64,000 nucleotides of DNA, filler included, from Sphacelaria rigidula (GCA_964200075.2; 3 parts of 3 records of this genome joined end to end with filler, not necessarily neighbours in it), one strand, 5' to 3'. Positions 21,317 through 45,822 are shown, counted from the whole stretch's first letter. Made by a program: numbers and translations. The notes: generated from the letters alone by a model not told the origin.

Positions 21317-22989
21317 GTCTATCTCGTTCTGACCACCGTTAGAGTCATGGCGGACCAGCCGGTATGCATGAACAGCAGTCAATGAACCAATCTATCACTC
21401 CGTCAATCAAATACTGCATGTGCGTAGAGAAATCTACACGAATCTATACAGTGTGGCGAAACATGGAACATCAACATCCATCGTGAGAAGTGAACGATTT
21501 ATCTGGCTACGTCCGCTTAGCTGGCAAAGCTTTCCACACGCTGGACGACCTGAATAACGACTCGTCCACATTCAACGTTCTCATGAATCAATCGAACGTA
21601 CACTCTTACTACCCGCAATTCATACGGCACGGCTCTCTCGCAAATTATGTCCATCCACCAATGACCCATCAATCATTATCACAGCAAAATCAAACGTATT
21701 TTTTCCATTTATGTGTTGTGCGGTCTATGCAACTGGAATAAATGGGGTATATTTTTCCCACCGGTTAGACACCCCTGAGGCAGTGTAAAAGCCATGGCTG
21801 TCTCTGGAAGTGGCGATCCCACAACGTAAAGCAACTCATTGCAGGCTGTCATCCAAATGCAAGAGATTCAGTNNNNNNNNNNNNNNNNNNNNNNNNNNNN
21901 NNNNNNNNNNNNNNNNTTAATTAATTAANNNNNNNNNNNNNNNNNNNNNNNNNNNNNNNNNNNNNNNNNNNNTTTTGGTTCGGTCATCAGTTTGTGTTTG
22001 TCTCTACCATATACACTACGTATGCATATCTAGGTTATATATGCTGGTCTCCGCACATTTGAATACATCTACAGTTCACGCCCATCTCGATTCAGCTCTG
22101 TAGAGGGATCTGTACTTTCGCCATTTATCTGCAACGGATGCCTTCGGGGTGCGATAGGGTGTTGTGCGCCGCAAAAACAAAATGGAACGTTGGAGGAGAT
22201 CTCCAATCACTGTACAGTGCCTGACCTGCTGAGACGCGAGTGCGATCATCATGTGGGTCCAGCCTGCCGTGGTGTTCATTGTTGGGGGCGCTGAACTGAC
22301 CACATGATGTAGAATGCGCTGTGAAGCCCACAACCTGTCCGTATACAAAGTGTGGAGCCGTGGTGTATCTAGTAACCTCGCGCTCAGGTTTTTGATCTCC
22401 TGTTTGCCGCTGACGGGTAGGGCGTGTATCGACGAGAGCACAAAGTGCAAGGCCTTCCGTGTCTCGTTTCGACTCATGAGACCCGTTTGTCTTTGTTTGT
22501 CACATTCCGCTTTCGATTCGGGATCTGCAGACATTGGCATGGCGAACATCTTGAGTTCGGGAACTTGAGCAACCTGTTCATGGCCTTTTTTCTCACTAGA
22601 TTAGAAAAGTAGGTATATTTTTTCGTCAAACACTGTCGAGAAGTCCCCCCCTCCCCCTCCTCCCGTCGAACAAAATCCTGCCTTTTGCCTGTAGCGCCAC
22701 GAATGTTCGATTGAGGCTATAATCAACACTATCACGGACTGCTATCTCAGAGGAGTCTTTGGTCTTCACAAATGTAAGCCCGCATTGCACGTATCACATG
22801 GATCTTGTCTCCGGCGTGAACCATGGGCATGCGCCTGGTCATTGGTGTGTGGGTTGACTCCCCACCTGGCGAATCGAGCTCAATGGCTTCGATACTAATG
22901 ATTGCGTTTGAGCCCGCTAGCCTGGTGCCCACTGAACTGGCACCACTCCAGCTAGAGAATCGAACCATGACATATATGCTATCCACATT
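15449..22989 (-). CDS. Unidentified multi-exon protein-coding gene (partial)
   Basis: Five consecutive AG/GT-bounded, phase-compatible, stop-free exons: 19093-18867, 17497-17475, 17298-17076, 16555-16417, 15606-15449. A second compatible pair: 22989-22866 and 22563-~22080. No family recognised. Confidence 0.5.
16791..16858. repeat. Pentanucleotide microsatellite (CAGAT/CAGAC)n
   Basis: Seen directly: CCAGATCAGATCAGATCAGATCAGACC... Confidence 0.85.
21770..21853 (+). repeat. Dispersed repeat, copy 1 (second copy at 63917-64000)
   Basis: CACCCCTGAGGCAGTGTAAAAGCCATGGCTGTCTCTGG...AAAGCAACTCATTGCAGGCTGTCATC is shared with the end of the window. Confidence 0.85.
21873..21972. other. Assembly gap with TTAATTAATTAA spacer
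   Basis: 100 nt of N with a central all-frame-stop 12-mer (21917-21928); identical layout at 43818-43917. Confidence 0.97.
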
Positions 22990-28394: not shown

Positions 28395-31300
28395 TTACTT
28401 GTCAGCGCCCGAGTTCAGCCGCATTTTACGCAGTTTCTTCAAAAGAAATTCAGGTGTAGAAGAAAGAATCTTGCGAAGAGACTCCCACGTACGTTCTTCA
28501 GTACCAAACCCCTCCCAATCGACCAAAACAATGAAATCATCAATGACATCATCATTGACATCCTCAGCGACGTGTACCAAAGCATTCATCCGACATTCAC
28601 CTTGAGCATACGAATGCTGAAATACATCTCTCAGTTCCGCAGTTATGCGCAACTGCGAGTCAGCATAGAAACGCCTACGAGCGACATGGGCCGAGCGCAC
28701 GGCGCCAGAAACAATGTTCTGCACCAAATACACGTGAGCGTGATCGGCTCCGACCACTCCCCACGGACCTGCCCACGTGAACATCAACTTTGGCGTCACA
28801 CCTCGCCTACGAACGGGCATACAGTACGAAATCGCCAACTGCGAACTTGGGCAACACAGCCTGGCCCTGAGCAAGCTTGCGTTTGGTTTCGCGAGACACC
28901 ACAACAGCAGCTTGCACTTCGTTACAAAACCGCACTTGCTCGTCAACGACGCCTCAAACTTTGTCACGCAACGAATCAGCATCTATGACATCGACGTTCC
29001 ACTCGCCGCCAGGGACAGAAGCCAACGCTGTACGCGGCGCACGCCCGAACATCACACAATACGGAGTGTTACGGTAGCGTTCACGAGAAGAAGTATTCAA
29101 CCCCCACTGAGCGGCTGGCAACATATCAACTCCTTCAGACACCGGCCGTCTCTGTTCCGGCAAAATAGACAGCAACGCACGAATAACCCCTTTCGCCATG
29201 CGTTCGCAAGCACCATTCGACCAAGGGGTATACACAACAGCAAATTGGTGTTGCACCTTGAGCGCATCACTCAGCTGCGCGATCACTCGATTTTTGAAGT
29301 GCGTAGCGGTATCACTAACCCACACACGCGGCACCCCCAAAGTCTTATACCAATGGAGCAAGTGCTCAGCCGTAGCCTTGGCGGTACAAGCCTCGATCGG
29401 ATCCAACAAAACGAAATTAGACAAATCATCCCTGATAACCAAAACGTACCAAAAACCATCCTCATCAGGCGAACCATTATCATATTCAGGTCCGCTACTT
29501 CCGACGTACAGAAACTTAAAGTGAACAACTTCACCTGGCGCAGTACCATGCACCGTATCGCCATACAGATGAGGTACAATCGCACCAGCACGAGTGTCTA
29601 CACAATGCAAACACTGGCGAACGAACTCGCGAACGTGGGAACCCCTGTGAGGCCACACACAGTATTCTTTCAAACGAAACAGAGTCGGCGCCACGCCACG
29701 GTGACCAGTCGACCGCATGTGAGTCTACACCATCAAGCGAGTTTGTAGAGCAATGTCATCCGACGGAATCCACACAACATCACTACTACCAACACGCACG
29801 CGAAACAAACCATCACCAACCAAAGCAGCTTGACCGAAAGTCGTAGGAAAAGAATGAACACCGTCGCCGACTGCTTTGCGCTGCGCGGTATGAATGGCAT
29901 CTAACAAGGACAGCGAATCATCGGCATCACACGGGCTGTACACGGGCTGTACACGGGAACAGAACGAACGTGCACGGTAGGAATTTTCACCAAGCGAGCT
30001 TTACCTCGCATGAATAAACCGGCAGGCGTGGCGATCGTGAGGATCTCCTGAGCCCCCGACGCCAGAAACATCTGTCACTACTCCTGTAGCAGGCCCAACT
30101 TGCCGAAGCATTGGACTCCTAGCGACTCCCGCATGTCTTCTTGGCTTGGCATCACCCCCGGAGACTGTTCCACTTGCGCGTTCACCGCCTGATAGTCGCC
30201 GACCAAACGGAATGTGTCCCTCTTCGGCACCGCCATCGCCGGACTCGCCCACACAGCCCGGATGTTCCTAACCACTAAACCAAACGCCACCAAAGCTGCG
30301 ATATAAGAGGCAAGCCACCCGGTCTCCATCGGATCATAGCGTCGGGGTTTGACCTTCACAGCATCTCTCATTGGCTCCACGCGCGCTGGCGGATCACCAC
30401 GCAGCGCACGACTAAAGGTATCCACGCCACGAGCCGAAATATCGCGCAGGCGATATGCGCCATCGGCGCTCAGGCCCTTCTGCTCAGCCTGCCTCACGCT
30501 ATCCTCAAGCGCATGCTCTCCTGCACCTCTCTCCTCCGCCGGGTCAATTAACATGTCGGGGCCCCGATCGACCAAGCGCTCCACCGCTTCATCCGCAGGA
30601 GCCTCCTCCTCATTGGCGCTCTAGAATGGCCGTATGGATACGGTCACACGCCTTGCAGCAAGATGGCTGGGGTTTTCCACGCCAGCATGCACCGGTACAG
30701 CACGCGGATGTAACTTATCCAACGCCAGCGTGTACAAATCAATCCCGAGCTCCTTCATCGTCGCCATCCCAAACAGAATCACGTTGTCCCTACCGGTCAT
30801 GACAGCGAAAGTGATGGGCTGCAACTCCGCAGCCCCCCACGGCGTACGCACGCTAACAGCAATCGGCAACGTGTCATGTGTAACCGTCACGGGAGCACCC
30901 GTGGCGGTCTGCGCCGTTTGCGGTCCACTTTCGAACGGAATCTGAAGCTGAGCGCCGCCAAACTGCGAAGACATTTGTCCTAGCAGCCCTAGACCAATCG
31001 ACGTGAGCGCGGACTCAGAATCCAGAATAACGCGAGCCATGAACGAACCGACGGAACCAGGCGAGGAAAGATCTGCGCGAAAACATTCGGCCTTGCGATC
31101 GACAGGTACCACGCCTGCCGAAGAACCCTGGTCGGTACCAAGAGTCACCCGACGCCAGGGCTGCCCTCCAGCACTTGACATCGATAACTGAGAATCGTCG
31201 GTCCAACCAGACCGAGTCGCCGAATATGCAGACGACGCTGTTACAGCCGTCGCAGTAGTAGGAGATGCACCAGACACAGATCCTGCCCGGCCGAGGGACT

Positions 31301-31795
31301 GCGAACTATTCGCTTCAGCACCCCCCACCGAAGTAGTTGCATTGCCCACGTACACTGCCCGCCCCGCTACGGACGAACCATGAGATCCAGAGTCACCACC
31401 TGATGACGTGGTGGAAGAAACAGCCGCGGAGGAACCACCATCCGCCGCGGATTGCTTGCTACCGTGGCCGCCGCGCCCGCGTCCCTCGTTGGCGCGGCCC
31501 CGTCCACCGTGACGACCACCTCCAGATCCTGATGGATCTCGCATATTTCCTTGAGCAGCGCCTTGAGCGCTAGGCTTGGGGCAGTCCTTGATCGGATGTC
31601 CGGCGTCGCCGCAGTTGTAACACGCGCGAGTGAACGACGCTCGCGAAGACGGCTGTTGTTGCTGTTGCTGTTGCTGTTTGTGGGGCGCACTACCTGCACT
31701 CGCCGCAGAATCGCGCCGGTTATGTGCCTCAATAAATTTTCACTGGTCGGCGGCATCAAATATTTTGTTGAACACCACCGTCGGGTTTTTTTTCC
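28395..31795 (-). mobile_element. Degenerate chromodomain-bearing Ty3/gypsy retrotransposon, 5'-truncated and internally deleted
   Basis: On the minus strand: CCHC knuckle ACYNCGDAGHPIKDC (31622-31581); aspartic protease VILDSESALTSI; RT N-part WASPAMAVPK..FRLVGDYQAVN; integrase GHRG...CLHC and RVWVSDTATHF...YTPWSNGACER; chromodomain LVDWEGFGTEERTWES. Most of RT and RNase H is missing. An 11-bp tandem duplication lies at ~29929-29957. Confidence 0.92.
28954..29718 (-). pseudogene. Gypsy integrase (zinc-binding and rve core)
   Basis: ORF contains GHRG..CLHC, LVIRDDLSNF, WVSDTATHF and PWSNGACER motifs. Confidence 0.9.
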
Positions 31796-32029
31796 GGGTA
31801 TTTCTATTTACGTCAACGTCGACGTACTGTGTTACATACGCCAACGTCGACGTACTCTGTTACATCCGCCAACGTTGACGTAATTTGTCACATCCGTCAG
31901 CGTTCAGCATCCGTCCCACAAGCCCCGCAAGGACACAGCAACACATGGAAAACACTCACACAGTCTCTAGCTATCGTTCAAGCCATCGGACGGAGCAAAC
32001 GGGCCCGTAGCGGATGAGATACGTGCTTA
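31796..32029 (+). repeat. Left long inverted repeat (putative TIR) with 28-bp subrepeats
   Basis: GGGTATTTCTATTTACGTCAACG...GTGCTTA is the reverse complement of 42833-43038. Contains three GCCAACGTYGACGTACTCTGTTACATCC-like units. Confidence 0.92.
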
Positions 32030-34323
32030 TGGAAGAGTGAGCACCGCACTCCATGCAGTGTAGATGTCACAGCACCGCACCCCAAACCGTGTAGGATTTC
32101 AAGGAATCGAAGTCCCACCTGCCTCAAAAAGACGCAGTAATCTATTGTGTAAACTTGAGAAGCCCTTCCCTGTCGTTCGACCCATTCCACGCAGCAAACA
32201 GCTGCGCAGCTGTGTTAACAGAGCCCTAGCTGCACGGTGCAGCTGCCCACAAGAACGCCGAGTATCCATATCCCCAGACCGTGGGTACTGTCGAGATTCT
32301 ATTCTGGTATTGCAGACATCTGGATGGTTGATCATCACCATCAGACCTTGTGGACGCCGGGACACTCATTGCCTACGACGCAAGTTGACACGGAACGTAT
32401 CGGGACACCAAAAACATCCCCGGCGGCGAAGCTGTGGACAAGATGAAACGCTTCACCGTAGATCCCGCTGTAAAGTCACTGGCGAAGTGCAAGGATGTGC
32501 TGTCTTTTGTCGCCCGTCCCCCAGAGTTGGGATCACGGCATGGTTTACGCGTGGATTGCGCCAAGCTGGTGGAGGCGAAGAGGTGGGCCTGGAAACAGGC
32601 AAACCCCCATCAGCGGCGAAGTCCTAGCAGACTCATACCAGGTATACATCGTACGGATGCGTACCACCCAAGATCATGTATCTCCGTATCTCCGTCATGG
32701 TCGTGGGATGCACATGAAATTGACATCACGAGACGAATCACAACCGCCATTGAATTATGCATGTTTCGGTTGGGGCATCACTCGGTACTACCAGGTACGT
32801 AAAAGGTAGGGAAGACTGCAGACGAGTCCATACGCCTGTATGCTAAACAGTACTGCATCAACAGAGCGAAGGTAGGATGAGAAGCACGCGGCGATCGTTC
32901 CCAAGATGGCGTAATCACGCACAGGGCATAACGAGTACAGGATGTAACACCTATGGGGTATAACACCCCTTGACAAGAGAACACCGATGACATAGACCCC
33001 ACCATCACAACAGAGCGCGAAAGATGTCAAGAATCTGGGAGATAATAATGCAAGCCTCGTTTTTGTTGAAAAAAGTGAAGGAACCACGGGTGAACAGTTT
33101 TGCTGACCCCGACGAGAACGTGATATTCACAATTCGGAAAGGGCAAGGAAGTCGGCACTTTGGTCATGACTTGTGTTTCTTTTTTTTTTTAGTGTTTTCT
33201 TTTTTATTATTTTTTTTCTGTTTTTTTCTGCGCTATCCCCTGATTTCTGCGCCTCCCTCCCCTTTTTCCGCCCCTGCTTTTGCACAAAAACTCACCCGCC
33301 AACGGTTGAGACAATACCAAAAAGGGGGAAAAGTTAAGCTAGGCTAGTAAAACGGTGGGGGACCACGTGGGCAGCCCTGTTTTGACTTGACTTTTGATCG
33401 GGGCTCCCCAAGGTACCAGCCTGGCTCAACGGTTGACGTGAAACGTCACCTGTATCCACAAATCAGCAACATTAACTGGTTTTCATGCGATTTTTTGTCA
33501 CGGCCCTTTTTCGGCGCAAAAGAAAACGGTATTGCGCTTTTTCTGCGATGGCATCTGCTCAATTTTCCAAAAATCTGCGACTTATTGTTGTCCTCCTGCT
33601 CCTCTTTTTCACGGCCGTTTTTCTGCGCAAAGAAATGGTATTCTTCTTTTTCTGCTTGTTCTGCGATCGCAGAAGGAGCGCAGGCCTATTGGCAGTTGAG
33701 AATCTGGAAGAATGCACTGCACCTCAGAATAACGAGATACCGCTTCCACAACCACAGTGACTCAACCAGGCCTCCACGCAAGCGGCTTCCTCGGTAAATG
33801 CACGCGGCCATTTGACTACCCCCGAAAATCTCTCCGCACGAAAGTTCACACCTCTTCAGAGGAATAAAACACCGCTACTAGAGGACGAGTGACCTCTGGG
33901 AGGATTTCATGTTGTGCTGGGTCCATCTCCCTCCATCTAGAGCGACTACCTGTGGCCTGTTTCCCTACCGGTGTTCAACCCCTGAGCAAGAGGATACTAC
34001 CCACCCTCCACAGGGATGAAACGGTTCCACCGAGCTTCTGTCCCCTTTGGAACGGTGAATTTCGTATCGAGGGATTTGGAGGATAGTCAACAAGCCGCAT
34101 GTGAAAGTGGCAAAAGACGTTGATATATATTGGGACATCAAATCGACTATGGCATAGTGTTAGAGCTGTACTTTGTTTGAAGCGGATGGGGAACAGGGTC
34201 ATCGATATCGAGGTCCACCCGACACGTCATCAAGAGGTGTGACGTACAAGTCGCGGAACTCCGTTTGCGTCGAAGATCTGTTTTCAGAGACACACACAAT
34301 CTCACTCTTCGGCCCTCCGTCAT

Positions 34324-34896
34324 GTGCCTCCTCGGATGCATGTCGTCAAGGTCAAGAAGGATCTCCTGAAGAAGGGAGTCGACGTGGACAGAGTAACGGA
34401 GGCCCTTTTGAAAGGGGCAAACCCCGAAGATGGTGGTGGGGTTGGCATCGCTTTCCAGTGCATCGGGAACGGGGACTGTTTCATGAATGCCGTCGCGACG
34501 CTGATCATCGCGAAAAGTAGGAGGGGCGACCGTCGGAAGGCCATAATGCGGCTGGCCAAAAAGCTGAGACTGGCCATCGTGATCACGGGGATCAAGTACA
34601 TGGAGTTGTTCCTCGGTGACCAATAGGATTTTTATGGAGCCTGGCCCTGCTACAGCACGGAAGTCAGGGAAGATCTGGCAACCTCCGGGTGGACCGTGTC
34701 TCCCGGAGTGGACGACGGGTTATCTCTCGACTCGACAGACACCGCACGGTTGATGTTCGTGCGGCAGCTGTGGCATATGTCTGCGCCGGGGGTTTTCACG
34801 CAGCAGTTCGCATTCCCCATCATGGCCATTGTCCTAGGAGGTCCGCTGAGGGTCTTCAATCCAAGGAAGTTGGTGTTGCACTTTGGTGAAAAGCGG
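34324..34896 (+). pseudogene. OTU-like cysteine protease domain, one in-frame TAG
   Basis: CIGNGDCFMNAVA resembles the OTU catalytic loop GDGNC(L/F)FxA, followed by KKLRLAIV and QLWHMSAPGVFTQQFAFPIMAIVLGGPLRVF (resembles MS..G.W...A.A..L...I.V). ORFs 34324-34626 and 34696-34902 are in the same frame across the TAG at 34624-34626. Confidence 0.7.
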
Positions 34897-35337
34897 GTGT
34901 GAACACAGTTGGTGCGATTTCAGCGATTTTTTTGTTACGATGGGGATCGCCTATCGGATACCCGCTCGGAGGAGACGGACAACGACAGTAAATGATGTCA
35001 TGATGTCATTACGGTATGGTTTGCAAGCGCTATAGAATTGACTCGAATACGCAACCTCACTCAATCCCAAACGTGCGTCCCCTTTCACACAGCGCTGGTT
35101 CCACTTTCCCCACCCGACGGTGTCGGGATTACAAGATTTTGATCGGGGGCGGGGGGGGGGGGGGGGGGCGCGGGTGGGGCATGGGTATCTTCCTTGTTTT
35201 TTTCTTTTTTCGCCACCGGGGTGGGGGGATTGCCGNNNNNNNNNNGGGGGGTGTCGCGGGGGGGGGGGGGGGGGGGGGGGGCTACGGTTTGGACAATGGT
35301 ACTCTCACTCGTTTCTTCGTGTTCTCCCACCGGATAG

Positions 35338-38300
35338 GGAGGATTCCCACGGTATACTGCGGACACAGGGGGCCAAGAAAATAACGGGAGCAACGCAGGC
35401 GCGGCGCCGGTTGCGAGGATTGGTCGTTCATTCACCGTCACAGGTTCCCCCGACGACACCTGGGGCTCTGTCTTCGCCGAGCTCCTGCGCGATTCCCGCC
35501 AGGCTGGTTATGAGACGCTGCGGGTGCGACGGGTGATAAAGGTGGGTGCCATGCAGCAAGGAACAGGTGACATGACAACCACATGAACACACGGGGCATG
35601 CTGTCACGAGCGATCAGCGTTGGGCACATCGCCTCTTCGCGCGGAATAAATGAAGAGGAGACCTTATGCAATGAAGATGTGACAAAATCAACGAATCCCG
35701 CCCGATCGCAAACACTTGTATCCTTCATCTTGCAGACGGCGGACGGGTCGAGGTACACTTACTGCAAGATCGAGTGCGAGCATTCGGGACAACCTCGGAT
35801 AAAGGATCAGATGAAGCCGGGTGGCTACCGTCGAGCCGTCAATCCATCACATAAGGTCAGTGAACACTGTGTCGGGAACCTGGCGTATGTTGGTAGAACA
35901 TACGAGAGCCTCACCACACGATGTTGGAGGTCGATGTTCCCACGATTTCTGTGCAACGTTTTTTTGTCGTGCCCCCATAGCACACGTGTGTTGGTGCTCA
36001 CGATCCCACACCATGAGCACGACAGGATGCTTGTCGGCAACTTTGTGCTCAGAGGACGCCTCCACTCGTAACCTCCTGGACAGGTGGGATGTCCATTCGT
36101 TGTCGGCATCAGCTGGGCTCTTCGGGATGATGCGCCACACGTCACCGTGGTGAGTGCTGCCGTCCGAACCCAGTCGCCAAAAACTACATCTTTTTTCTGC
36201 GTTTCGGGCGCGGGCACGTGTAGCACCCGACAACATCCACCCCCTCCCCCTCCTTCCGCTCGCCTTGATTCCGTACCACCAGTCCCGTGAGAACCATGAC
36301 CACGACCCGCGGGCATCGATCACAAGGGCCGATCCTCGTATCCTCCCTACCTCCATCGTTGCAACGAGGGAAAGAGATTTTCGGAGGTGGACAGCGGCTG
36401 GCCTCTGAGCGGGGGACATTATAAAATTACTCGAAGCGGATGGTGGTGGTTTGCTACTCGGCAAAGATGGGAAAAAGAAGGGAAGCGAGGACCACTCTGA
36501 CAGAGGATGGGGCGGGAAGCGCGTGTGGGATCTATTCTCTCGCGACGCGAACCATTCCTGAGTAGTGGCGGTTCAACCCTCGGCATTACTCGGGAGAGTC
36601 CTGTCCACCCCTTACCGTGTCATTTGTTTTCCTGTCCCTTTTTATGTTTGCGGTGGATGATCACGTTCCAGGTCCGCAACATGATGCAGAAGGTGCAGAA
36701 GGAACTCTACTGCTCTCCACAGGATGCGACCGAATTCTTGCCTACCCTCAAAAGCGAGCCTGGTATGTTCTGCGAATATAAACTGGATGCAGAAGGAAGA
36801 CTCGTGGATGCATACTGGGCCACCGCAGAGCAGCAACAGAAGTGCGTAACATATGGAGGGTGCATCCAGTTGGATACGACGGTGCTCCTGTGCAGGTCAT
36901 AAGGTATGTCGGGATGTGTTCCAAGCTTGCTGTCTCTGTATCCGTACTTTTTTCGTTGTTCAATGATGCGCGCCGTCACCGACCCACGTGTAATGTGGTT
37001 CGCAGATACGGATGCCCTCTTCTCTTTGTGGTGGGCGTGGATAGCGAGAATCGCAGCTGCATCCTGGGGTACAACCTCTTGCGGTCTGAGTGCACCGAGA
37101 CTCTCGAGTGGATTCTTGACAAATACTGCCGAGCGAGTGGTGGGCGCCGACCCAAGGTATCCTTCACGCCATGTGAACATACTTTTCAACTCTCGAGACT
37201 GAGAAGTTCTGCTGCTCCCAGAATTTTTCTCCGCCGATGCACTACTTGCGACAGTTGCCCCTCTTGACACGGACTGACGTGTTGGTGGTTATGGTGACAA
37301 TATTTCTCAATTTTCGCTGCTGCACAGGTTGTGCTGTCAGATGCGGACCTAGCAATATCGGCTGCGGTGGAGACATCCTGGCCCAGCACACTCCACTTGT
37401 ATTGCTTACGGCACATTTTCAAAAACGTGCCGAAGAATTGTTTTTCTTCGCTGAGCGAAAGTGATCGGTCAGTATTCATGCACAAATTCTCGTGCGCAGC
37501 CTACGCAGCCACTCCCGAGGTGAGGGGTGGTATGTGGTATTCGTCCCAAACACCGTCGGCGGGTCCCTCAAAGTGTACGTCGATGGGCGCACGTGCTGAC
37601 GGAGTATCATCTTGGTTGTACGCGAATCTCATCAGGAAAACGGTAACGGGCAGGAGTTGAGCGATCTCACTCGTGAAAAATCCCCCCTGCCCCTGTATTG
37701 CGTCAGGTATTCGTTCGCTCCCAGCATGAGGTGGAGACAATGGCCAAGGGGACCAAGTGCGAGGGCTAGATCGCCGACATGTTCGCGTGAGTACACAGCA
37801 CAAGTGGCAGAAACCCCCAAAGTGGGTCTCATTTCCAGGACCATGGCCTCCACGCCGCAAACTGCATACATCCGTGTCTATCGGTGGTCGTTCGTGGGCA
37901 CAAGTTGGAATGCTACTGAACCCGACCCTCCATCCGGCGCCGTGTGTTGCATCCACTGACCGGTCTCTCCATCCGTTCAGGAAGAAAGAAAATTGGACTT
38001 TTTCCTGCCGGCCGACACATCTTACCCTGGGTATAGTTGCGACGCAGCGAACGGAGGGTCTGTTCGGGGTGGCAAAATAAACTGGCATCCATAGGGGCCT
38101 GTCACTGTGCGCCCTTTGGGACAAACTTCGTCAGTTGGAAACGCGCCTGTTGATGAAGACCGAGAGGTGAGGCGCTACACGCTTATGCACAATCCCAATT
38201 CAGGAGATGAGGATCGCCTGGATCTCGGGCAAGCGGTGGTCTTGTTTGAAATAATAGCCGATCTTGGATTACCTTGGAGCCGCCTCTTTCACTAACTCGT

Positions 38301-40812
38301 GTTGGATGGTCGCGTGTCTCGATCCTTAACGTTGTGCGTGAACAGCAACCGTGATGTGTCTTCGTGGCCGGCAAATTTCAGAAACTCGCTCCCACTCGCA
38401 ATCGGCTTGAGGTTGAGGACAATTCATGAATCAACGGGCTGGTCAGTCACTCAATCCGTCGATGATCCCGTGCAGCTTGACTAATGGAAGTCATTGTAGT
38501 CTCGTTCCATGGGCATACAAATCCTGGTAAGTTTGTGTCTGTTGAGTCTCACGGAACTTGGTCTTTCGGATGTCCGACAGACTATCGTCCCGCCGCATCG
38601 ATACCGGGAGAACATTCGCTGTGCAGGACCTGGGGAGCATGTTCCGACCCATTCTGGACAGTCTGCGGGCCACCAGGGCGAGTAATTACTGCGAGAAGGT
38701 CAGTACTGACTTGCGTCGTATCGACTCGGAGTGTCCCGTACGTAGCACACCATGATTACGCTGCGTACACCGCGGGTCTTGGCGTCAGAATTGCTACGCT
38801 TGTCGCTTTCAGGAAGAAATGCTGTCGGCGGTTGCCTCTAAGACCGACTTTTAGACCGACTTTTATGCACTGGAATGTAGACTTGTACGAGTTGACGATT
38901 TCAGCAACAATATCAGGTGATTCCCTCCGGCGGATTGAGTTTTCGGACCCCAGCCCGTTGGACAATGTTTTTCGGCTATCTGTGAGCAAGCCAGATCAAT
39001 TCTCCGATTCCCTACACGTCGACTTTGTTATGTGACCTTTCCGAAAAAAATCCAGGTACTCTACGATCTCGCCGCCGCGAGATTGACGGAGATGCAGTCG
39101 AGATCCTAGAGTTGCCCGTTTTTTTTCAGGAACGTGATACATGAAAGTCAACGTCGAGGGAATCGGATCATTGATCTGGGTTGCTCACAGCTAGCCGCAA
39201 AACATTGCCCAACGGAGTGGGGTCCGAAAAATCAGTTCGCGTGAGGAAACCGCGTAATATTGTTGTTCAAATCGTGAATTCGTACAAATCCAGATTCCGG
39301 TACATAAACGTCGGTCTAACAACGCTCAGGATATAAAGTCGGGTTGTGCGATTGAAATGACCGCCTCGTGCTCTTTTCTCGCCCATGCAGGAGCTCCGAG
39401 TGGAGTTCTCAAACGGATGTCAGGCTTACGATGTCAGCATCGCACGAGGGCCAACGGATGCCGACGGCAGACCGATCCCTGTCAGTGCTGCCTATGTTCG
39501 CCGCTTGTCGTCGGTGAAGCCCCGAGCGCAGATCTTGCAAGAGGCGCCAGATTTAACGGACCTGGAAAATTACTTTCACGGCGCGTCGGACGCCAGCATG
39601 TGGGCGCGCACTTCTCTGGAGACATTTTTGAACGTGATTGCTGACGTCCCCGCTGAGGCCGTGGCGATAGTACAGTACAAGCTCACAACTCGGGCGTCGC
39701 GCCCGAGCCATCTCGTCGTTTTGGGGCCCAGAAAATTTCATCTATGTTCTTGCCTGCAGCTTCTGCGCCGTGGACTACCGTGCAGGCACTACTTAGCCGT
39801 CTTGCCGCAAATGTTGGAAAAGCTGGTGGACGCGGGTGGCGAAGTCCAACACCTGTTCGACAGTGCGTGTGTGCACAACCGTTGGCGGGAGCGAACCGAT
39901 GGCCAGGACGCTCCGTGGAGCGTGAAGCAGGTACTCCGGTCGTCGGGGCATGGTGAAGGCTGGGACGGAGTTCGCGACGGTGGCAGCAGCGGTGGTTGGG
40001 GACCTACCCTTGACAACAGTGCCGACGGTGTGCACTCCCCAGAGCCAGCCGAGTCGAAACGAAACGCCAGAGTGGAAGCCGATCAACGACGCATCTTCGC
40101 CACGTTGATTGCGCGCTTCAAGGAGGAAGCAAATACCATCATCAGTTCCGTAATATCGCCGGCAGAGGCGTTGTCGATCCAAACGCAAATGGTGGCATAC
40201 CGGTCTAGTCTGATCCATATGGCGAAGGGCGCACCCGGGCCAGGCAACCCGGCAAAGCCGCCACAAAAAGGTCGCCCGAAGGGATCAGGCAACAAACCGA
40301 AGTTTAGTACACGTGAGGTGGGTAGGGGTAAGGTGAAGGGCAGCGTCAATGTCAAGGAGGAGAGAGCGTCCAACCCTCAGCAGCGGGGGGGCAATTCCAA
40401 GCGCACCAAACGCCACAGAGACTCGATGGAGACGCGAGGATCCCGGCCCATGATCGTTGACCGCGAAAGTGCACCCTGGAACGGTTGTCGCATGATCGAC
40501 CCGCGCGCCCTTGGTTGCCGATGTTCTCTTCGAGCTTCTTATCGGAAAATTGATGTTTGCTGTCGGTGCCCCGCTTTGTCAGTCAGTACTGGTAGGACAC
40601 GTAGACGGTGTATCACGGTGTATGTGGCGAGGTTAACGGTGGGGGCAACGGTTGTACGGTTCACCCGACCTCCTGCCCGTGCTACTGGTATTGTGTGGAG
40701 CCGACCTGCAACTATGTTTGTTGGTAAACGTATTACGGGAGGGAGCGATTTCCGATTACCTACTACGCAGTGTGTTATGGTGTATGATGTGTGGTCGACA
40801 TTTCACGCGTAG
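35338..40812 (+). pseudogene. Spliced FAR1/MULE DDE transposase with SWIM zinc finger, disabled
   Basis: 11 phase-compatible exons: 35338-35541, 35736-35855, 36084-36149, 36283-36468, 36672-36895, 37006-37156, 37328-37519, 37707-37786, 37981-38166, 38581-38698, 39391-40812. Motifs: CEHSG..VGCPF..HDH (FAR1-type DBD), QLDTT, LSDAD, YCLRH, TQRTEG, HLCSCLQLLRRGLPCRH (SWIM), HNRW, KGRPKG. Stops at 36406, 37767 and 38078; donor after 36468 reads GG. Confidence 0.93.
38851..39319. repeat. ~470 bp imperfect palindrome (foldback) inside transposase intron 38699-39390
   Basis: Left arm TTAGACCGAC...CTCTACGATCTCG pairs with right arm CGAGATCCTAGAG...GTCGGTCTAA around a ~25-30 nt loop. Confidence 0.9.
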
Positions 40813-40914
40813 GGAGTGCGTCGGCCACGTGTACTGCACCAGGTGTGGGGAAGAAGATTCCAATGCAGCACTTGAAGTAGAGTTTGACAGTTGAGAGATT
40901 CGGAAACCCAAATT

Positions 40915-41057
40915 GGCAGTATAGAGTCATAGTGGGAGGGGGGGAAATGGGGCTGTGTACTGTTTGTTTTGCCCCTCTTTGTTTTGCGACTGCGCAGTGT
41001 CAACACAAGCACTCTACAGCCCCGTTTTTTTCCCTTCCACTATGACCCTATACTTCC
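40915..41057. repeat. 143-bp hairpin / MITE-like inverted repeat
   Basis: GGCAGTATAGAGTCATAGTGGGAGGG...GGGGCTGT is complementary to ACAGCCCC...CCCTTCCACTATGACCCTATACTTCC. Confidence 0.8.
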
Positions 41058-42832
41058 ATGCTTGGTTTGCCGTACGCGTCTAATGTTTTCCGCGAAAATG
41101 TCGGCAGCAGGAGCTGCAGGAGACGAAGCGGTTGCGCTTCGCATACGCGTTGGTGAATCGCTTGCTTCCGGTGACATTGTCGCTGCTTGATTTTGATATT
41201 AATCGGCCGCTCTTGTCCGTCTCAGCTTTCCTTCACTCCTCGGTATCAAGTTCCGATCGGGGCTCAGTCGTCTCTTCTGCACAATGCGGCGGTGAAGACC
41301 ATACGCATGTACTTGTTTTTTGGTTGAAAAAAAAAACACTCGCGTCGGCGTCTTCTCATAGTGCCGTCTTTTCGCCCACTACTGAGTATGTGTTGATATT
41401 GGCCAGCATATTCTCACGGTTTCGTCGGGAATATGCTGTACATTTCGTTCGCCAATCCATCAAAATAACCTCTACTGAGCCAGCCGTCCGTGCATGCTTC
41501 GTGAACATATCTCGGAAAAACACAAGAACCTGACAGATGAGTCTTGCAGAATTGACGACGAAACACTCTTTGACTGAAAGAAGTGATAAAAGCAAAACGC
41601 CCAGGTATGGCGGACGAATCCTTTTGCACTGAATATAACACGATAAGAGAAGGTAAAAACGACGTCAGAAGAGAAAAATATTCGGGGCTCTCTGACATGG
41701 CTTAAACTGCTGGAGCTTGCGCACCCGGAACTTCGCTGAAGTCTTGGGGGGAAATGCGGTGGAATGGGATAGCCTATGTCGTTCATTGATTACGGAATTT
41801 CTGTTCCTCAACATTCCACTACCATGATGCACCTGCTCGTGTATCCGAGTGAAACAGCTGAATATGGGAACCTTTACGGCTCATCTCTCCCGGTCATGAC
41901 TTGTGTTGCGTGGAACAACTGAGGATAGAAATGTTAAAACCCCCTCGTCTCTCATCTCAAAGACCGACGAAAATTGTGAGGGAACTACCTACAGAGTAGG
42001 CTACACCCTGTAAAGTGTACGCTTCTTCGGCTGAAACACACGGTGTGACGGTGCTATCAGGACATAGTCTGACCCTCGCCAACACTTTGTGCTGGCAGCA
42101 GACTTGGCCGCGCGGCTTGCGCGCCGGCTCCGTTTTGAGGTTTGTTACAAATCTCAAGTGTGCAAAGCTCTGCAGGCCGCTCAATGCCCAGGTAAGGTGG
42201 TGCTTCTCGAGACGATACAGAATCCAGACAAACCAGGAAGGTAGACAAGGAGTTAGCTCGAGCATAGGGCATAGATTGATACCTGCTCAACAGATGCAGG
42301 TGTGCGAGTATTTCTCCGCATACGTTACACGCCAACCGGCACGTTTTTCTACCGACTGTAGTCTCCACACGTACAACATGGGTGATGCGTGAAAACAGTG
42401 CTACTGTGCTTTGACCACGTAGAGGAATGTATAGACAATTTCGTGACAGGTCTATGATTCGTGTGCAGTATAGGCCAAACCACGCGTGAGTAGCCCCTGC
42501 ATCTGTGACTTGCGCATTCTGTGCTCACATTGTCTCGCTGGCTATAAACTGCGCCAAGCAGCAAGAATAACTCACATGCTAATATGAGTCAGCAGTGCCA
42601 CCCGCATGCCGCGGTGTCGAGCGCACGTTTAGTCTACAAAGCTGCCGCTGCGAAGAGTACGGATACGAATCAAGTCTTCCCGCTGCCTATACCCAGCCCA
42701 TGACCTTAGCTATCACGGTAACAACTAGATGTTGTGTCCACCGGCGTGCGGGCTTGCCTATTCGAAGCTTGCGGCCTTTTCGATCACTTATCTGTGATCA
42801 GCACATCGTGTGTAGCATAACGTTGTGACAGC

Positions 42833-43038
42833 TAAGCACATATCGCACCCGCTACCGGTCCGTTTGCTCCGTGCGATGGCTTGAACGATACCTAGAGACT
42901 GTGTGAGTGTTTTTCATGTGTTGCTGTGTCCATGCGGGGCTTGTGGAATGGATGCTGAACGTTGACGGATGTAACAGAGTACGTCAACGTTGACGGATGT
43001 AACAGATTACGTCAAAGTTGACGTAAATAGCAAGACCC
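42833..43038 (-). repeat. Right long inverted repeat (putative TIR)
   Basis: TAAGCAC...GTTGACGTAAATAGCAAGACCC; has one fewer 28-bp subrepeat than the left copy. Confidence 0.92.
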
Positions 43039-43054: not shown

Positions 43055-45822
43055 AGATTTTGTAACAAAATAATTTGGAATTTTCAAAATTGGGAGGGTC
43101 TCCCCCCGGGGTTGCTTGCAGGCTTTCGACAAAAACGCTATGCAAAATGCTGGTAGAGGTACTAGGGTTTGCAAATGCAGTGCAGGATTTCTCACAAAAG
43201 ACTGTGAAGAACCCCTCTCCATCAGATACGATTTGTGACAACTGTGAGGGTATTCGGGGAATATCGCTCGGAATGAAACATGTAGAATAGTATTCAGGGG
43301 TATCGTAGTACATGTTTCCCTGTTGACAATCGAAATTCCCAGCGCTTTATGCCCGTTACGATGAACGACTGCTTTCCAAGAAAACCATCCGTTATTTATA
43401 GGACTTCCACGGGGGTCTTATCCTAACCCCGAGGTTGTCACAATTCCTATCTGAGGTAGAGGGTGCCAGCACTTCGATGCGGGTTCTGAATTAAAAACAA
43501 ACGGCTCGGATTTTGCAAGCGCGTTGCACTACAGTAGTATCCTTCGACAGCCCCACCGCGAAACCGGTTCTCAACACAGCCACGGCGGAAGTGGCCATAC
43601 AAGGCGTGATAGCTAGTTCAGACTCGATGAAGCGCCTCGCATGGGCGCTACTGGCGAGACAACCCCAAGCGTGGGACTAACCCTTACCCCCGTTGTGTGT
43701 GTGTGCAGCTTTATTGTGGGGCATCCATTTTATCCAGCTAACGACTGTACTGTAGTGATGCTGTACTCTGGTGTGCTGGTATATATCAGCAGACTGCTGA
43801 ATGATGCTGCGTTTCAANNNNNNNNNNNNNNNNNNNNNNNNNNNNNNNNNNNNNNNNNNNNTTAATTAATTAANNNNNNNNNNNNNNNNNNNNNNNNNNN
43901 NNNNNNNNNNNNNNNNNGAAGGTCTTCACAAGTGTTTGATCTCTCGTGCACTCCCCCCAACTCGCGTGTGGTCAAGCGCCCGGTTGGGGTGGCGGACAAT
44001 CAACGATGAATAACACCCCCTAAGTTCATACTGGATCTATCTGGTTTTGCCGCAGCACCGTCCTTGCGGGCATGTGTGTGACAGAGAACAGTAATAGCGG
44101 TGACGGAAATATTGCCCTGTTTTTCAAGGGCATGTTCTTCAGCGCACAGAGGCGCGTGTTGTCCAAAAGGAGAGGCAGAGATAAATTGATCTTCGCATCG
44201 ATGATGAGGTGCTCAGGCAAGACGAAGAGACGAGATCTCTCCGCAGGTCGGTCTTTAGGCACAACATGGAAAATTCGGTTCATGCTGGTAACATGCATGA
44301 TGCCAGTCTCTCGAGCGTTTGGTAATCGCCGAGCGAGGACACACAAAGGACACGGGCGAGGAGCTTCCTCTCTGTCGTTGCTTCTCTCTCTGGTGATATC
44401 GCCATCGACACGCGTGTACACCGCATTCGTTGGGTGCACCTAGCCCGAACTGCCCAACTCCTCCTGCGGAGTTTTGGTGCAAAATACCTTCCTTTTGTGC
44501 TCCTGTTTGGTATTTTCCCAACGAAAGCGATTCGCGGGTTGAACCTCATTCTATAGTTCAACCCCAAAAATAAGGATCGGCTGTTTCATGGTATTTCTTG
44601 CGCCACGTATAGACCTCGTTGACCGCTGTACCCTGAAGGGACAAAAAGAGCTACATTTTCTCTCTTTCTCTCTTGGTAACACAACACGTGTACTCACCAC
44701 CTGCACTTGCCCCCGCTGATGCCGTTGGCGCAGTATCCCTAGCCTTGGCAAACATATCAACACCTCCATCACCCGCAACACTAGAAGCGGTAGCACCACC
44801 AGCAAGAGTGGGCCGCGCCCCTAAAGTAAAGGGCCGTGCTGCAGGGGCCGTTGTTCCGCCATTAGAAGTGGGTGACGATCCCGCCGAGGCAAAGTGAGGT
44901 AGCTTGATATGTCGAATTTCCACACGTTCAGCTGCGGATGATCCAGCCTTATCAGGGACCGGGCAGGACTTACGAGGCCGTGAGAAGAGTTCCATGTTGA
45001 CGATATATCACTTGTAGTACGTAGTGGGGATGTGAACGCGCCGTGCTCGGGACAGGGATTTGCTCAGGAATTTGTGGCACTGTGATTCGTGCATGAGTCG
45101 ACATCGGAGAACATTCGGTGAAGGACAACAACCATGTCAAATATCATGAGGTCCGTGTATGTGAAATGTGCGTCGTTCAATGACAAAGGGGGGATTAAAA
45201 TCGCCATTTGGTGTACACAACGGGGCAAGACGTGTTGTCACCGGTGACGGTTGTGGTCAAAGAGATACACACTGTAATGCGTGAGAGGACCGCGTGCTTA
45301 GAAGACAGCGCCGTAGTTCAAAACACCTCAGGATCGACGTTTTTCATAACCAATCGGGCCAGTCCCTGGAGGTACTACGCCCCTGACCATAACCGTAACA
45401 CTAACCCTGACTCTAACCCTAACCCTAACCATAGGGATGTTCAAATTCCGATGCGGTCCTCTAAGCACGCGATCCTCTCACGCATTACACACACAACGTG
45501 CTGTCTGAGAAACGTTTGGTATTTCCGTCCGACTGAACACATGTTTATGGCCGTGTGCGAGCTTGTTCTGCGGAATAACGACGACCTTAACTCAAACAAT
45601 GGATTTGGGATGAGGGAGCGGCAGAAAAAATGCTTCAACATCTCTCTTTCACCTCTATCGTTGAACGGCGCCTCATCTCATGCCACCAAAACATGCGATG
45701 TACCTCGCTTTTCCGCGCGAATCATGGATTTCAACTGTGCCTACACGAAATTCGACAGCGCGTGGCAGTGCATCAAGCCTTTCCATCCCAGCGTTGGCAA
45801 GAGAGAGCAGCAGCTCCAACTA
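43055..45822 (-). CDS. Candidate exons of an unidentified minus-strand gene
   Basis: AG/GT-bounded open segments 43319-43055 (GNMYYDTPEYY...) and ~45822-45703 (LELLLSLANAGMERL...), plus a GTGAGT donor after 44698. Exon order and phasing not fully resolved; spans a gap. Confidence 0.3.
43818..43917. other. Assembly gap with TTAATTAATTAA spacer
   Basis: 100-nt N block with spacer at 43862-43873. Confidence 0.97.
45273..45489 (+). mobile_element. MITE carrying telomere-type (CCCTAA)n repeats, copy 1
   Basis: ~37-bp TIR TGTAATGCGTGAGAGGACCGCGTGCTTAGA... / ...TCTAAGCACGCGATCCTCTCACGCATTACA; internal degenerate CCCTAA array at ~45382-45430. Confidence 0.9.

What the first reader, a model, noticed from the sequence alone, without database searches (positions are those of the whole stretch)
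34324..40812. OTU-like protease exon that can splice in frame onto a FAR1/MULE/SWIM transposase
Seen: an OTU-like domain (GNGDCFMNA) lies ~440 nt upstream of the first transposase exon on the same strand. Donor CGG|GTGTGA after 34896 and acceptor TAG|GGA at 35338 are both phase 0, giving ...LHFGEKR|GGFPRY...FAR1-DBD...DDE...SWIM. Known: OTU domains are deubiquitinase-type cysteine proteases, and some Mutator elements carry proteases (Ulp1 in plant Kaonashi MULEs). Inference: a transposon family whose transposase is fused to, or co-encoded with, a ubiquitin-editing enzyme, possibly countering degradation or chromatin silencing. This copy is disabled, and the catalytic His could not be assigned with certainty.
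Basis: partly seen in the sequence, partly recalled or inferred. Interest (0 to 1): 0.78.

Follow-up and report, generated by a model that had tools for sequence, protein, structure and literature searches.

The report
Brown-alga Mutator transposon carrying OTU protease
A broken copy of a Mutator-type jumping gene from a brown alga carries, ahead of its transposase, a diverged ubiquitin-protease-like (OTU) domain; this pairing is rarely described, but it resembles protease-carrying transposons already known.

Summary
The OTU-like domain is real. The window's own translation has no Pfam hit. Its homologues do (5 of 18 hit PF02338, one above the curated cut-off). An AlphaFold model of the window protein also matches only OTU deubiquitinases in the top 31 rows of a structure search (Z 7.3-4.5; next rows at most 3.8).

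The domain lies inside one 11.2-kb Mutator-like element, 31796-43038, with about 200-nt terminal inverted repeats. It is on the same strand as an 11-exon WRKY/FAR1-like, MULE, SWIM transposase.

- The OTU gene starts in an upstream exon (ATG 32443) that is spliced 32641|34351.
- The 35338 acceptor is supported.
- No 34896->35338 junction was seen in any of the four runs laid.
- An Ectocarpus gene model places about 190 residues, including an NHF motif that could hold the catalytic His, between the OTU exon and the GSWPRYT/FAR1 part.
- That segment is absent here, where poly-G tracts and a 10-N gap sit.

This copy is dead: one frameshift, four premature stops, one GG donor. Whether OTU and transposase form one polypeptide stays open (about 55%).

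This is a new variant of a known kind. OTU is already known in Ginger1 and Helitrons, Ulp1 in MULEs, and an OTU-superfamily fusion in Medicago MULEs.

The parts
31796..32029 (+). Left terminal inverted repeat (234 nt) with three copies of a ~28-nt subterminal repeat
   Evidence: Inverted-repeat search (I1/I3, 89% complementary). Ends read. Global alignment.
42833..43038 (-). Right terminal inverted repeat (206 nt, two subrepeat copies)
   Evidence: About 90% identity to the left TIR over 193 nt, plus a shared 22-nt terminus. The 9-bp flanks do not match, so no TSD is seen.
32071..32641 (+). Exon 1 of the OTU gene. Candidate ATG at 32443. One extra base near 32600 shifts the frame in this copy.
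   Evidence: RNA-like contigs cover 32071-32639 and join it to 34349/34351 with GT..AG (depth 223 in X1, 150 in X2). All four runs lack 1 nt at 32600 (table 4). Gene model P0007 reads ...KQENPISGEVLADSYQ|VKEDLLKKG across the junction. There is a weak match to the P0012 N-terminus (E 0.45).
32642..34350 (+). Intron 1 (1709 nt), holding a very highly repeated stretch at 33180-33405
   Evidence: GT..AG joint seen in X1 and X2 only (table 5). Depth of 44,651 and 36,942 in the DNA-like runs for that bin (table 2).
34351..34896 (+). OTU exon: Cys loop GNGDC and the helical part of the fold up to the strand LRVFNP. Conservation runs to 34863. Possible phase-0 donors lie at 34872|34873 and 34896|34897.
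   Evidence: Homologues. Pfam OTU in 5 of 18 family members. AlphaFold model plus structure search. Donors and phases.
34477..34479 (+). Codon of the candidate catalytic Cys (C79 of P0001)
   Evidence: Invariant in 18 of 18 aligned sequences. Lies at the start of helix 79-89 in the model. Aligned to the Cys loops of A20, OTUD7B and LotA.
34624..34626 (+). In-frame TAG stop in the OTU exon
   Evidence: Homologues have Tyr at this position.
35135..35290 (.). Poly-G tracts flanking a 10-N assembly gap (35236-35245). This is where relatives would carry the second OTU half and a linker.
   Evidence: tblastn of P0021 finds nothing for its residues ~95-424. Reads are cut here (table 1).
35338..35541 (+). 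Transposase exon T1: GGFPRYT linker and the start of the WRKY/FAR1-like DNA-binding domain. It contains no Met.
   Evidence: An RNA-like contig (record 5, 1718 nt) starts to match at 35336, with 1278 nt of its own further upstream (table 8). P0021 425-466 aligns here at 45% identity..
35736..36480 (+). Exons T2 (35736-35855), T3 (36084-36149) and T4 (36283-36480): rest of the DNA-binding domain (CKIEC, GCPF, NHDHD). TGA at 36406. The T4 donor is GG, not GT.
   Evidence: Joints in X1/X2. Exon table and stops. P0021 alignments. P0021 456-537 hits FAR1 at E 0.0015.
36672..37519 (+). Exons T5 (36672-36895), T6 (37006-37156) and T7 (37328-37519): MULE DDE core (QLDTT at 36867, LSDAD at 37334)
   Evidence: Pfam MULE, E 1.1e-5 (profile positions 12-92) and 7.4e-6 (64-99). 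Joints. Naming the D residues is my reading of the motifs (one search gives the coordinates).
37707..38698 (+). Exons T8 (37707-37786), T9 (37981-38166) and T10 (38581-38698). TAG at 37767 and TAA at 38078.
   Evidence: Joints and loose ends in X1/X2 (tables 5 and 7). Frame and stops.
38851..39319 (.). 469-nt foldback insertion (221-nt arms, 80% complementary) inside the last intron (38699-39390)
   Evidence: The intron is defined by the X1/X2 loose end at 38699, which continues with the sequence at 39391 (table 7).
39391..40812 (+). Last exon T11: SWIM-like CxC...CxH (39745-39792) and a basic C-terminal tail
   Evidence: Pfam SWIM, E 0.023. P0021 590-681 aligns to 40003-40281, E 1.2e-6..

Best explanation
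The region is a dead copy of an 11.2-kb Mutator-like element (31796-43038) of a brown alga. The closest named proteins are gene models of Sphacelaria rigidula.

SHOWN
- The element has long TIRs.
- Its + strand carries a two-exon 5' coding part, with ATG at 32443 and the splice 32641|34351.
- That part encodes the Cys-loop half of a diverged OTU-fold cysteine protease.
- It is followed by an 11-exon WRKY/FAR1-like, MULE DDE, SWIM transposase that begins at a spliced acceptor (35338) and has no start codon of its own.

INFERRED
- In intact family members both parts belong to one multi-exon gene: N-terminal OTU domain, then a charged linker, then the transposase.
- The exons for the second OTU half (with the probable catalytic His, NHF/RHF in relatives) and the linker are missing here. 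They were either deleted or are hidden in the poly-G/N gap.
- The OTU domain would act as a deubiquitinase-type isopeptidase on the transposase or on chromatin or repair factors at the transposition site, or it would cut the polyprotein in cis.

This copy cannot make either protein. It has a 1-nt frameshift near 32600, stops at 34624, 36406, 37767 and 38078, and a GG donor at 36481.
For: ONE ELEMENT, ONE STRAND
- TIRs at 31796-32029 and 42833-43038.

OTU KINSHIP
- P0012, a homologue at E 9e-31 to the family profile, scores 24.9 bits on PF02338 against a cut-off of 23.3.
- 5 of 18 family members hit OTU at E<=0.1.
- 12 of 14 weak PDB profile hits are OTU proteases matched at the Cys loop, E 0.019-1.7.
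- In the structure search of the AlphaFold model (pLDDT 67.5, core above 80), the top 31 rows are OTU-type deubiquitinases (OTUD3: Z 7.3, rmsd 3.8, 106 residues). Unrelated rows follow at Z<=3.8.

SPLICING
- GT..AG joints appear in the RNA-like runs X1 and X2 and not in the DNA-like runs X5 and X7. They cover 32641|34351 and 8 transposase introns. Two more introns come from loose ends.
- The resulting 11-exon model is in frame over 986 codons.

LINKAGE
- P0021 (Ectocarpus gene model, 735 aa) is colinear with window 34600-34881, 35410-35535, 35727-35798, 36072-36146 and 40003-40281.
- Exon T1 has no Met, and its contig carries 1278 nt further upstream.
- The motif L-x-HFV(S/P) lies downstream of the OTU first half in P0021 and P0025, with a degenerate RDFV in P0029.
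- The Atlas structure rows for P0021 residues 1-175 align to OTU clusters through residues 164-175. This is a lead only.
Against: - No RNA-like contig joins the OTU exon to any transposase exon.
- At 34465 only one X1 contig (depth 232.5) covers the OTU exon. Record 5, the spliced transposase contig (depth 15.9), therefore does not contain this OTU exon at 88% likeness or more (tables 4 and 8).
- An X1 contig of depth 97.5 runs unspliced from the OTU exon to about 35015 (tables 3-4).
- Only 1 of the 36 profile hits (P0021) combines OTU and FAR1. It is a gene prediction, and it lacks the MULE core.
- P0025 (Nemacystus) has the OTU domain with an unrelated, unannotated C-terminal part.
- 'Longer' searches with the OTU ORF and with exon T1 found no fused protein: 0 of 1361 and 0 of 82 candidates.
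- The window's own OTU translation has no Pfam or PDB sequence hit.
- No catalytic His can be shown in this copy.
- No TSD is seen.
Confidence: 0.58

Rival explanations
1. Two genes in one element. The OTU protein is a separate accessory product with its own transcript ending shortly after 34900. The transposase is made from a different transcript whose 5' exons are not the OTU exons. This would be analogous to mudrA and mudrB of MuDR (recalled), but on the same strand.
For: - RNA-like contigs read through the end of the OTU exon to about 35015 without splicing.
- The spliced transposase contig (record 5) does not cover 34465.
- No OTU-to-transposase joint was seen.
- Most database homologues are short, OTU-only predictions.
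Against: - The OTU fold would lack its His strand if the protein ended at 34902.
- P0021 and P0025 continue past this point in spliced gene models.
- P0021 places the OTU half and the FAR1-like domain in one model, colinear with the window.
- The short homologues are mostly ORF calls on short genomic contigs and cannot show splicing.
- The runs are contigs and drop rare isoforms (notes).
Confidence: 0.28
2. A Pack-MULE-like passenger. A fragment of a host OTU deubiquitinase gene was captured by the element, has no role in transposition, and is decaying.
For: - MULEs are known to capture host gene fragments. Pack-MULEs are cited in the Ectocarpus TE paper (passage seen).
- This copy lacks the His half and carries a stop.
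- The dominant transcript has a 1-nt deletion at 34465.
Against: - The profile search returned no canonical host OTU protein. It gave only short TE-like fragments and brown-alga gene models.
- The domain, its N-terminal exon and its position upstream of the FAR1-like part recur in Sphacelaria and Ectocarpus.
- The Cys-loop columns are invariant across sequences only 25-67% identical. That argues for past selection on the active site.
Confidence: 0.08
3. Not an OTU protease at all. The GNGDC motif is a chance resemblance in an unrelated helical protein.
For: - The window protein has no Pfam hit at E<=1 and no PDB sequence hit at E<=10.
- Foldseek gave no match at E<=0.001.
- The best Z of 7.3 lies in the range the tool calls middling.
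Against: - The top 31 rows of an unbiased search of 48,161 chains are all OTU-type proteases, with a gap down to Z 3.8.
- The Pfam OTU hit for homologue P0012 is above the curated cut-off.
- PDB profile hits concentrate on OTU Cys loops.
Confidence: 0.03

Closest known systems
Medicago truncatula MULE transposases fused to a papain-like protease of the OTU superfamily (Babu et al. 2006, PMC1702500; one passage read)
   Same: WRKY-GCM1-type DNA-binding domain, MULE catalytic domain and SWIM, together with an OTU-superfamily protease in a Mutator-superfamily element. The authors proposed processing of the polyprotein by the protease.
   Different: There the protease is a C-terminal fusion, in a land plant. 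Here the OTU domain lies N-terminal (5') of the transposase, in brown algae, and the fusion itself is not proven. No sequence comparison with the Medicago proteins was possible here.
Ginger1 DNA transposons with C-terminal OTU or Ulp1 domains, and animal Helitrons/Helentrons encoding OTU (Bao et al. 2010, PMC2836005, passages; Arkhipova & Yushenova 2019, PMC6431247, passage)
   Same: An OTU cysteine-protease domain encoded within the transposition protein of a eukaryotic DNA transposon. Its role in ubiquitin-linked steps of transposition or repair is proposed but untested.
   Different: A different transposase superfamily (Gypsy-integrase-like DDE, or Rep/helicase) and different hosts (animals, fungi). 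There the domain is C-terminal or internal.
Ulp1 (C48) protease-carrying MULEs of plants (KI-MULEs; Hoen et al. 2006 and van Leeuwen et al. 2007, seen only as references and in the discussion of PMC2836005)
   Same: A Mutator-like element carrying a ubiquitin-like-modifier protease of the papain-like clan beside or fused to the transposase.
   Different: The protease family is Ulp1/SUMO protease, not OTU. It is found in plants, hydra and lancelet.
Cellular and viral OTU deubiquitinases (OTUD3, Otu2, nairovirus vOTU, OTUB1, A20)
   Same: The predicted fold of the Cys-loop half, with the Cys at a helix N-terminus in a G-x-G-x-C motif.
   Different: Sequence identity is 7-20% in the structural alignments. 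No His loop is present in this copy. The position three residues before the Cys is Asn here, but Asp in the Ectocarpus members (GDGNC).

Membership tests
OTU cysteine proteases (Pfam PF02338, papain-like clan) | Profile HMM match above the curated cut-off | tested here: inconclusive
   The window protein P0001 has no hit at E<=1. Homologue P0012 scores 24.9 bits against a cut-off of 23.3. P0011 (20.5) and P0010 (19.0) fall below it. 5 of 18 family members hit at E<=0.1.
OTU cysteine proteases (Pfam PF02338, papain-like clan) | Catalytic Cys in a conserved Cys loop at the N-terminus of a helix | tested here: met
   C79 (34477-34479) is invariant in 18 of 18 sequences, within G-x-G-x-C-x-x-N. 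Helix 79-89 in the model. Aligned to the Cys loops of A20, OTUD7B and LotA.
OTU cysteine proteases (Pfam PF02338, papain-like clan) | OTU fold | tested here: met
   Structure search of 48,161 chains: ranks 1-31 are OTU-type deubiquitinases, Z 7.3-4.5. Of these, 26 name OTU or OTUB in the title. The other five (3von, 6ks5, 8yka, 3tmo, 3dkb) I recall as OTU family. Unrelated rows follow at Z<=3.8. Only the part up to the LRVFNP strand is modelled with confidence.
OTU cysteine proteases (Pfam PF02338, papain-like clan) | Catalytic His on a C-terminal strand | tested here: not met
   Not present in this copy. tblastn finds no counterpart of P0021 residues ~95-280. The His of LHFGEKR is kept only in P0052 and is not conserved across alignment A2. 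In relatives a candidate NHF/RHF motif is seen by eye only. The P0025 model is below pLDDT 50 in that region.
OTU cysteine proteases (Pfam PF02338, papain-like clan) | Isopeptidase or protease activity | not testable with these tools
   Needs expression of an intact family member and activity probes.
Mutator-like elements (MULE/MuDR superfamily) | MULE DDE transposase domain (PF10551) | tested here: met
   Two ORF pieces split by an intron hit profile positions 12-92 (26.3 bits) and 64-99 (26.8 bits), E 1.1e-5 and 7.4e-6. Each lies just under the 27.6-bit cut-off on its own. The intron is confirmed by the joint 37156|37328.
Mutator-like elements (MULE/MuDR superfamily) | Long terminal inverted repeats | tested here: met
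   234-nt and 206-nt arms, about 90% identical, 10.8 kb apart, with subterminal repeats.
Mutator-like elements (MULE/MuDR superfamily) | Target-site duplication of about 8-11 bp (the size is recalled) | tested here: not met
   The 9 bp outside the two TIR ends do not match. An LTR-retroelement remnant abuts the left end, so the flank may not be original.
Mutator-like elements (MULE/MuDR superfamily) | WRKY-GCM1/FAR1-type N-terminal DNA-binding domain and C-terminal SWIM finger | tested here: inconclusive
   The window's exons give no FAR1 hit. The colinear region of P0021 hits FAR1 at E 0.0015 (19.6 bits, cut-off 28.1) and AFT at E 0.041. SWIM scores E 0.023 (14.7 bits, cut-off 19.6), and a CxC...CxH pattern is present at 39745-39792.
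Transposase-protease fusion proteins (Ginger1-OTU, Medicago MULE-OTU type) | Protease and transposase in one open reading frame or transcript | tested here: inconclusive
   For: the P0021 gene model, and exon T1 having no Met and a spliced acceptor. Not found: any joint from the OTU exon to a transposase exon in 4 runs, or any fused protein in the 'longer' searches.

The most novel reading that the evidence does not exclude
Brown algae harbour a lineage of autonomous Mutator elements whose transposase is made as an N-terminal OTU-deubiquitinase fusion. The OTU activity is needed for transposition, by removing ubiquitin or a ubiquitin-like modifier from the transposase, from histones or from repair factors at the excision or insertion site. 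This would be the same solution reached independently by Ginger1, Helitrons and Ulp1-MULEs, and here it would be testable in a genetically tractable alga (Ectocarpus).
Probability: 0.3. Interest if true: 0.6.

Novelty: new variant of a known kind. Interest (0 to 1): 0.45.

Why it matters
Ubiquitin-family proteases have been picked up repeatedly by unrelated DNA transposons: OTU in Ginger1 and Helitrons, Ulp1 in MULEs. Nobody has shown what they do.

A brown-alga MULE family with an N-terminal OTU domain adds an independent case in a third eukaryotic supergroup. The family is transcribed and spliced in at least some copies. Ectocarpus relatives offer a laboratory model in which the protease could be mutated.

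For genome annotation, the finding explains a set of short 'unnamed protein products' in brown-alga genomes as fragments of one transposon gene.

The searchable literature holds no description of this family. The main text of the MULE survey does not mention proteases. The supplements of the Ectocarpus TE paper, which could describe its single MuDR family, could not be read.

Tried and rejected
- **Own genome:** not held, so no census of copies was possible.
- **Earlier scan notes:** none by place, sequence or words.
- **Contig collections:** viral contigs and metagenome contigs scanned with the OTU alignment A1 gave no relative. The wider alignment A2 had no stretch conserved enough for that tool.
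- **Fused forms:** 'longer' searches for fused forms of the OTU ORF and of exon T1 found none, which the tool itself calls weak evidence.
- **PDB by sequence:** P0001 and P0021 gave no hit at E<=10.
- **Foldseek against PDB:** nothing at E<=0.001. The top weak rows were OTU proteases.
- **P0025 model:** made to see the His half. Mean pLDDT was 47 and residues 234-332 were below 50, so it was uninformative and was not searched further.
- **P0021 against P0025 by BLASTP:** no significant alignment.
- **Pfam on both at E<=10:** no OTU hit.
- **Sequencing runs:** no RNA holder is listed on record. X1-X4 are labelled RNA only as a guess.
- **Contig depths:** about 1,500-3,000 over 32050-35213, about 150-450 over 35214-37699 and about 1,000-2,000 beyond in X5 and X7. 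These hint that many copies keep the OTU part but lack the transposase core. The tool warns that such sums are not copy numbers, so I use only the explicit deletion joints.
- **Profile hits dropped:** five of the 36 profile hits (P0019, P0020, P0023, P0028, P0039) were set aside. They are long repetitive proteins matching only the LAKKLRLA-like helix in several stretches. Their Pfam hits are unrelated, and P0028 was read.
- **TSD:** searched by eye, none found.
Full report
**What the sequence holds**

The window is eukaryotic DNA of about 50% G+C. No whole genome is held for it. The closest named proteins to the ORF in question are gene models of the brown alga Sphacelaria rigidula (P0004 at 88% identity, plus P0007 and P0009). 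More distant relatives come from Ectocarpus and Nemacystus.

The frame 34243-34902 (+) contains GNGDCFMNA. It is interrupted by one TAG at 34624-34626, where homologues have Tyr.

**Is it OTU?**

The window's own translation has no Pfam hit at E<=1 and no PDB sequence hit at E<=10. The case for OTU rests on homologues and on predicted structure.
- A profile of six close homologues, searched against 1.84 billion representative proteins, gave 36 hits at E<=1e-3. Of these, 13 were at E<=1e-10 and 8 at E<=1e-30.
- Five of the 36 are repetitive proteins that I set aside.
- Among true relatives, P0012 reaches 24.9 bits on PF02338 OTU (cut-off 23.3). P0011 and P0010 score 20.5 and 19.0.
- In an 18-sequence alignment, 5 of 18 members hit OTU at E<=0.1.
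- The profile of that alignment found 14 PDB sequences at E<=10. Twelve are OTU proteases (A20, OTUD7B, LotA/Lpg2248, a nairovirus OTU). All are matched at the Cys loop, and none is individually significant (best E 0.019).
- An AlphaFold model of the window protein built with this alignment has mean pLDDT 67.5, with blocks 80-200 mostly above 80.
- Foldseek found nothing at E<=0.001. Its top weak rows were OTU proteases.
- The Foldseek-independent search of 48,161 chains placed OTU-type deubiquitinases in ranks 1-31 (OTUD3: Z 7.3, rmsd 3.8, 106 residues; Otu2: Z 7.2). Unrelated proteins followed at Z<=3.8.

The candidate catalytic Cys (C79, 34477-34479) is invariant in 18 of 18 sequences and starts a helix. 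I conclude that the exon encodes the Cys-loop and helical part of a diverged OTU fold.

**The element**

Inverted repeats of 234 and 206 nt, about 90% identical, lie at 31796-32029 and 42833-43038. They share a 22-nt terminus and carry subterminal ~28-nt repeats. They enclose both the OTU exon and the transposase, all on the + strand.

The 9-bp flanks do not match, so no target-site duplication is seen. An LTR-retroelement remnant (integrase and zinc knuckle, minus strand) abuts the left end.

**Gene structure from public runs**

Four coded runs of one organism were laid on 32050-38800 at 88% likeness or more. All are contigs. X1 and X2 are labelled RNA only as a guess. They carry GT..AG joints that X5 and X7 lack, while X5 and X7 cover introns and exons alike. 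I therefore treat X1/X2 as RNA-like and X5/X7 as DNA-like.

The joints are:
- 32641|34351 (depth 223 and 150), which joins an upstream exon to the OTU exon
- 35541|35736
- 35855|36084
- 36149|36283
- 36480|36672 (the window has GG at the donor)
- 36895|37006
- 37156|37328
- 37519|37707
- 37786|37981

Loose ends give two more, 38166|38581 and 38698|39391.

The first joint is also present in the Sphacelaria gene model P0007, which reads ...KQENPISGEVLADSYQ|VKEDLLKKG. The OTU protein starts at a candidate ATG at 32443, about 400 nt inside the left TIR. All four runs lack one base at 32600, so the window has a frameshift in exon 1 (table 4).

The 11 transposase exons give 986 codons in frame, with stops at 36406, 37767 and 38078. 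Domain support is as follows:
- Pfam finds the MULE domain in two intron-split pieces, E 1.1e-5 and 7.4e-6.
- SWIM is weak, E 0.023.
- The FAR1-like domain is supported only through P0021: FAR1 at E 0.0015 and AFT at E 0.041.

**The proposed splice**

GT follows 34896 and AG precedes 35338, and both are phase 0. A second phase-0 donor lies at 34872|34873.

The acceptor is supported. An X1 contig of 1718 nt (record 5), which carries the spliced exons T1-T4, starts to match the window at 35336 and has 1278 nt more upstream (table 8). Exon T1 has no Met. The first Met of the model is residue 94, inside the DNA-binding domain.

No joint from the OTU exon to 35338 is listed in any of the four runs. 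The only joint in that area, 34828->35438 with two extra letters, also stands in the DNA-like run X7, has non-canonical ends, and is out of frame by my count. It is a deletion variant, not a splice.

Other DNA-level deletion joints (34065->37796 in X5, 35011->37359 in X7) show internally deleted copies that keep the OTU side.

**What relatives say about the link**

P0021, a 735-residue Ectocarpus gene model, carries the following parts in order:
- the second part of the OTU exon (residues 1-94, aligned to 34600-34881, E 2.8e-17)
- about 190 residues with no counterpart in the window
- GSWPRYT and the FAR1-like domain (aligned to 35410-35535, 35727-35798 and 36072-36146)
- the C-terminal tail (aligned to 40003-40281)

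It lacks the MULE core.

The unmatched stretch contains LLELNHFVSL. P0025 (Nemacystus) has ELRHFVPI about 80 residues after its RIFNP strand. P0029 (Ectocarpus) has a degenerate RDFVTL. By eye these fit the OTU His strand. The Atlas structure rows for P0021 residues 1-175 align to OTU clusters through residues 164-175 (TM about 0.5; a lead only).

In the window, the place where this segment should be holds poly-G tracts and a 10-N gap (35135-35290). The His half is therefore either deleted or unassembled. The His in LHFGEKR is shared with P0052 (LHLGET) but not with other members. I cannot assign a catalytic His in this copy.

**Evidence against one transcript**

- At 34465 only one X1 contig (depth 232.5) covers the OTU exon. 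Record 5 (depth 15.9) therefore does not contain this exon at 88% likeness or more.
- An X1 contig of depth 97.5 runs unspliced to about 35015.
- P0025 joins its OTU domain to an unrelated C-terminal part with no Pfam family.
- 'Longer' searches found no fused protein.
- Contigs drop rare isoforms, and the autonomous lineage may be more diverged. This evidence weakens the fusion reading but does not refute it.

**Mechanism**

Shown: one TIR-bounded MULE with an OTU-fold exon pair 5' of a spliced transposase that lacks its own start.

Inferred, with about 55% confidence for the fusion: intact members make an OTU-linker-WRKY/FAR1-MULE-SWIM protein. The OTU domain would then serve one of two roles. 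It could be a ubiquitin or ubiquitin-like isopeptidase acting on the transposase or on chromatin and repair factors. It could instead be a cis-processing protease, as proposed for other transposon proteases (PMC2836005 and PMC1702500, passages read). Neither role is tested anywhere that I could find.

**Comparison with what is known, and novelty**

OTU domains are described as C-terminal parts of Ginger1 transposases and in animal Helitrons. Ulp1 is described in MULEs (PMC2836005; PMC6431247). Babu et al. 2006 noted Medicago MULE transposases with a C-terminal OTU-superfamily protease (PMC1702500).

- The main text of a survey of MULE diversity mentions no protease (PMC6446971).
- The main text of the Ectocarpus TE paper lists one MuDR family without a domain map (PMC12477816). 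Its supplements were not readable.
- Six literature searches found no description of a brown-alga OTU-MULE.

The finding is therefore a new variant of a known kind. It is moderately interesting, and this particular copy is a pseudogene.

Noticed in passing
window 28954-31739 (minus strand): ORFs with integrase zinc-binding and rve core domains (28954-29724) and a CCHC zinc knuckle (30621-31739). This is an LTR-retrotransposon remnant ending 57 nt from the MULE's left TIR. It may explain the missing target-site duplication.
   Followed up: partly
window 38851-39319: A 469-nt foldback (arms of 221 nt, 80% complementary, 27-nt loop) sits inside the last transposase intron. It looks like a small foldback or MITE-like insertion.
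   Followed up: partly
window 21873-21972 and 43818-43917: Two identical artificial-looking spacers: 44 N, then TTAATTAATTAA, then 44 N. The window seems to be three pieces joined by linkers. The element lies wholly within the middle piece.
   Followed up: no
window 33180-33405: A stretch inside intron 1 has contig depth 44,651 and 36,942 in the DNA-like runs, against about 2,000 beside it (table 2). It is probably a very abundant short repeat nested in the element.
   Followed up: no
window 35135-35290: Long poly-G tracts lie on both sides of a 10-N gap, and the flanks resemble each other (75% over ~90 nt). They may be assembly or sequencing artefacts at contig ends.
   Followed up: no
window 40904-41068: A 73-nt inverted repeat (74% complementary, 19-nt spacer) lies just downstream of the transposase reading frame. 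Its function is unknown.
   Followed up: no
window 61364-62329 (+): An ORF with an Ion_trans domain (E 3.4e-10). It is probably an exon of a host ion-channel gene.
   Followed up: no
P0021 (Ectocarpus gene model), residues ~150-163 and ~228-241: The motif HFV(S/P)LSS occurs twice, about 78 residues apart. This suggests an internal duplication of the putative His strand and linker.
   Followed up: no
Atlas rows for P0021 residues 1-175: One structural neighbour cluster is vertebrate vertnin, whose members carry HTH_Tnp_1. This hints that another transposase-related protein may hold an OTU-like fold. It is a lead only.
   Followed up: no
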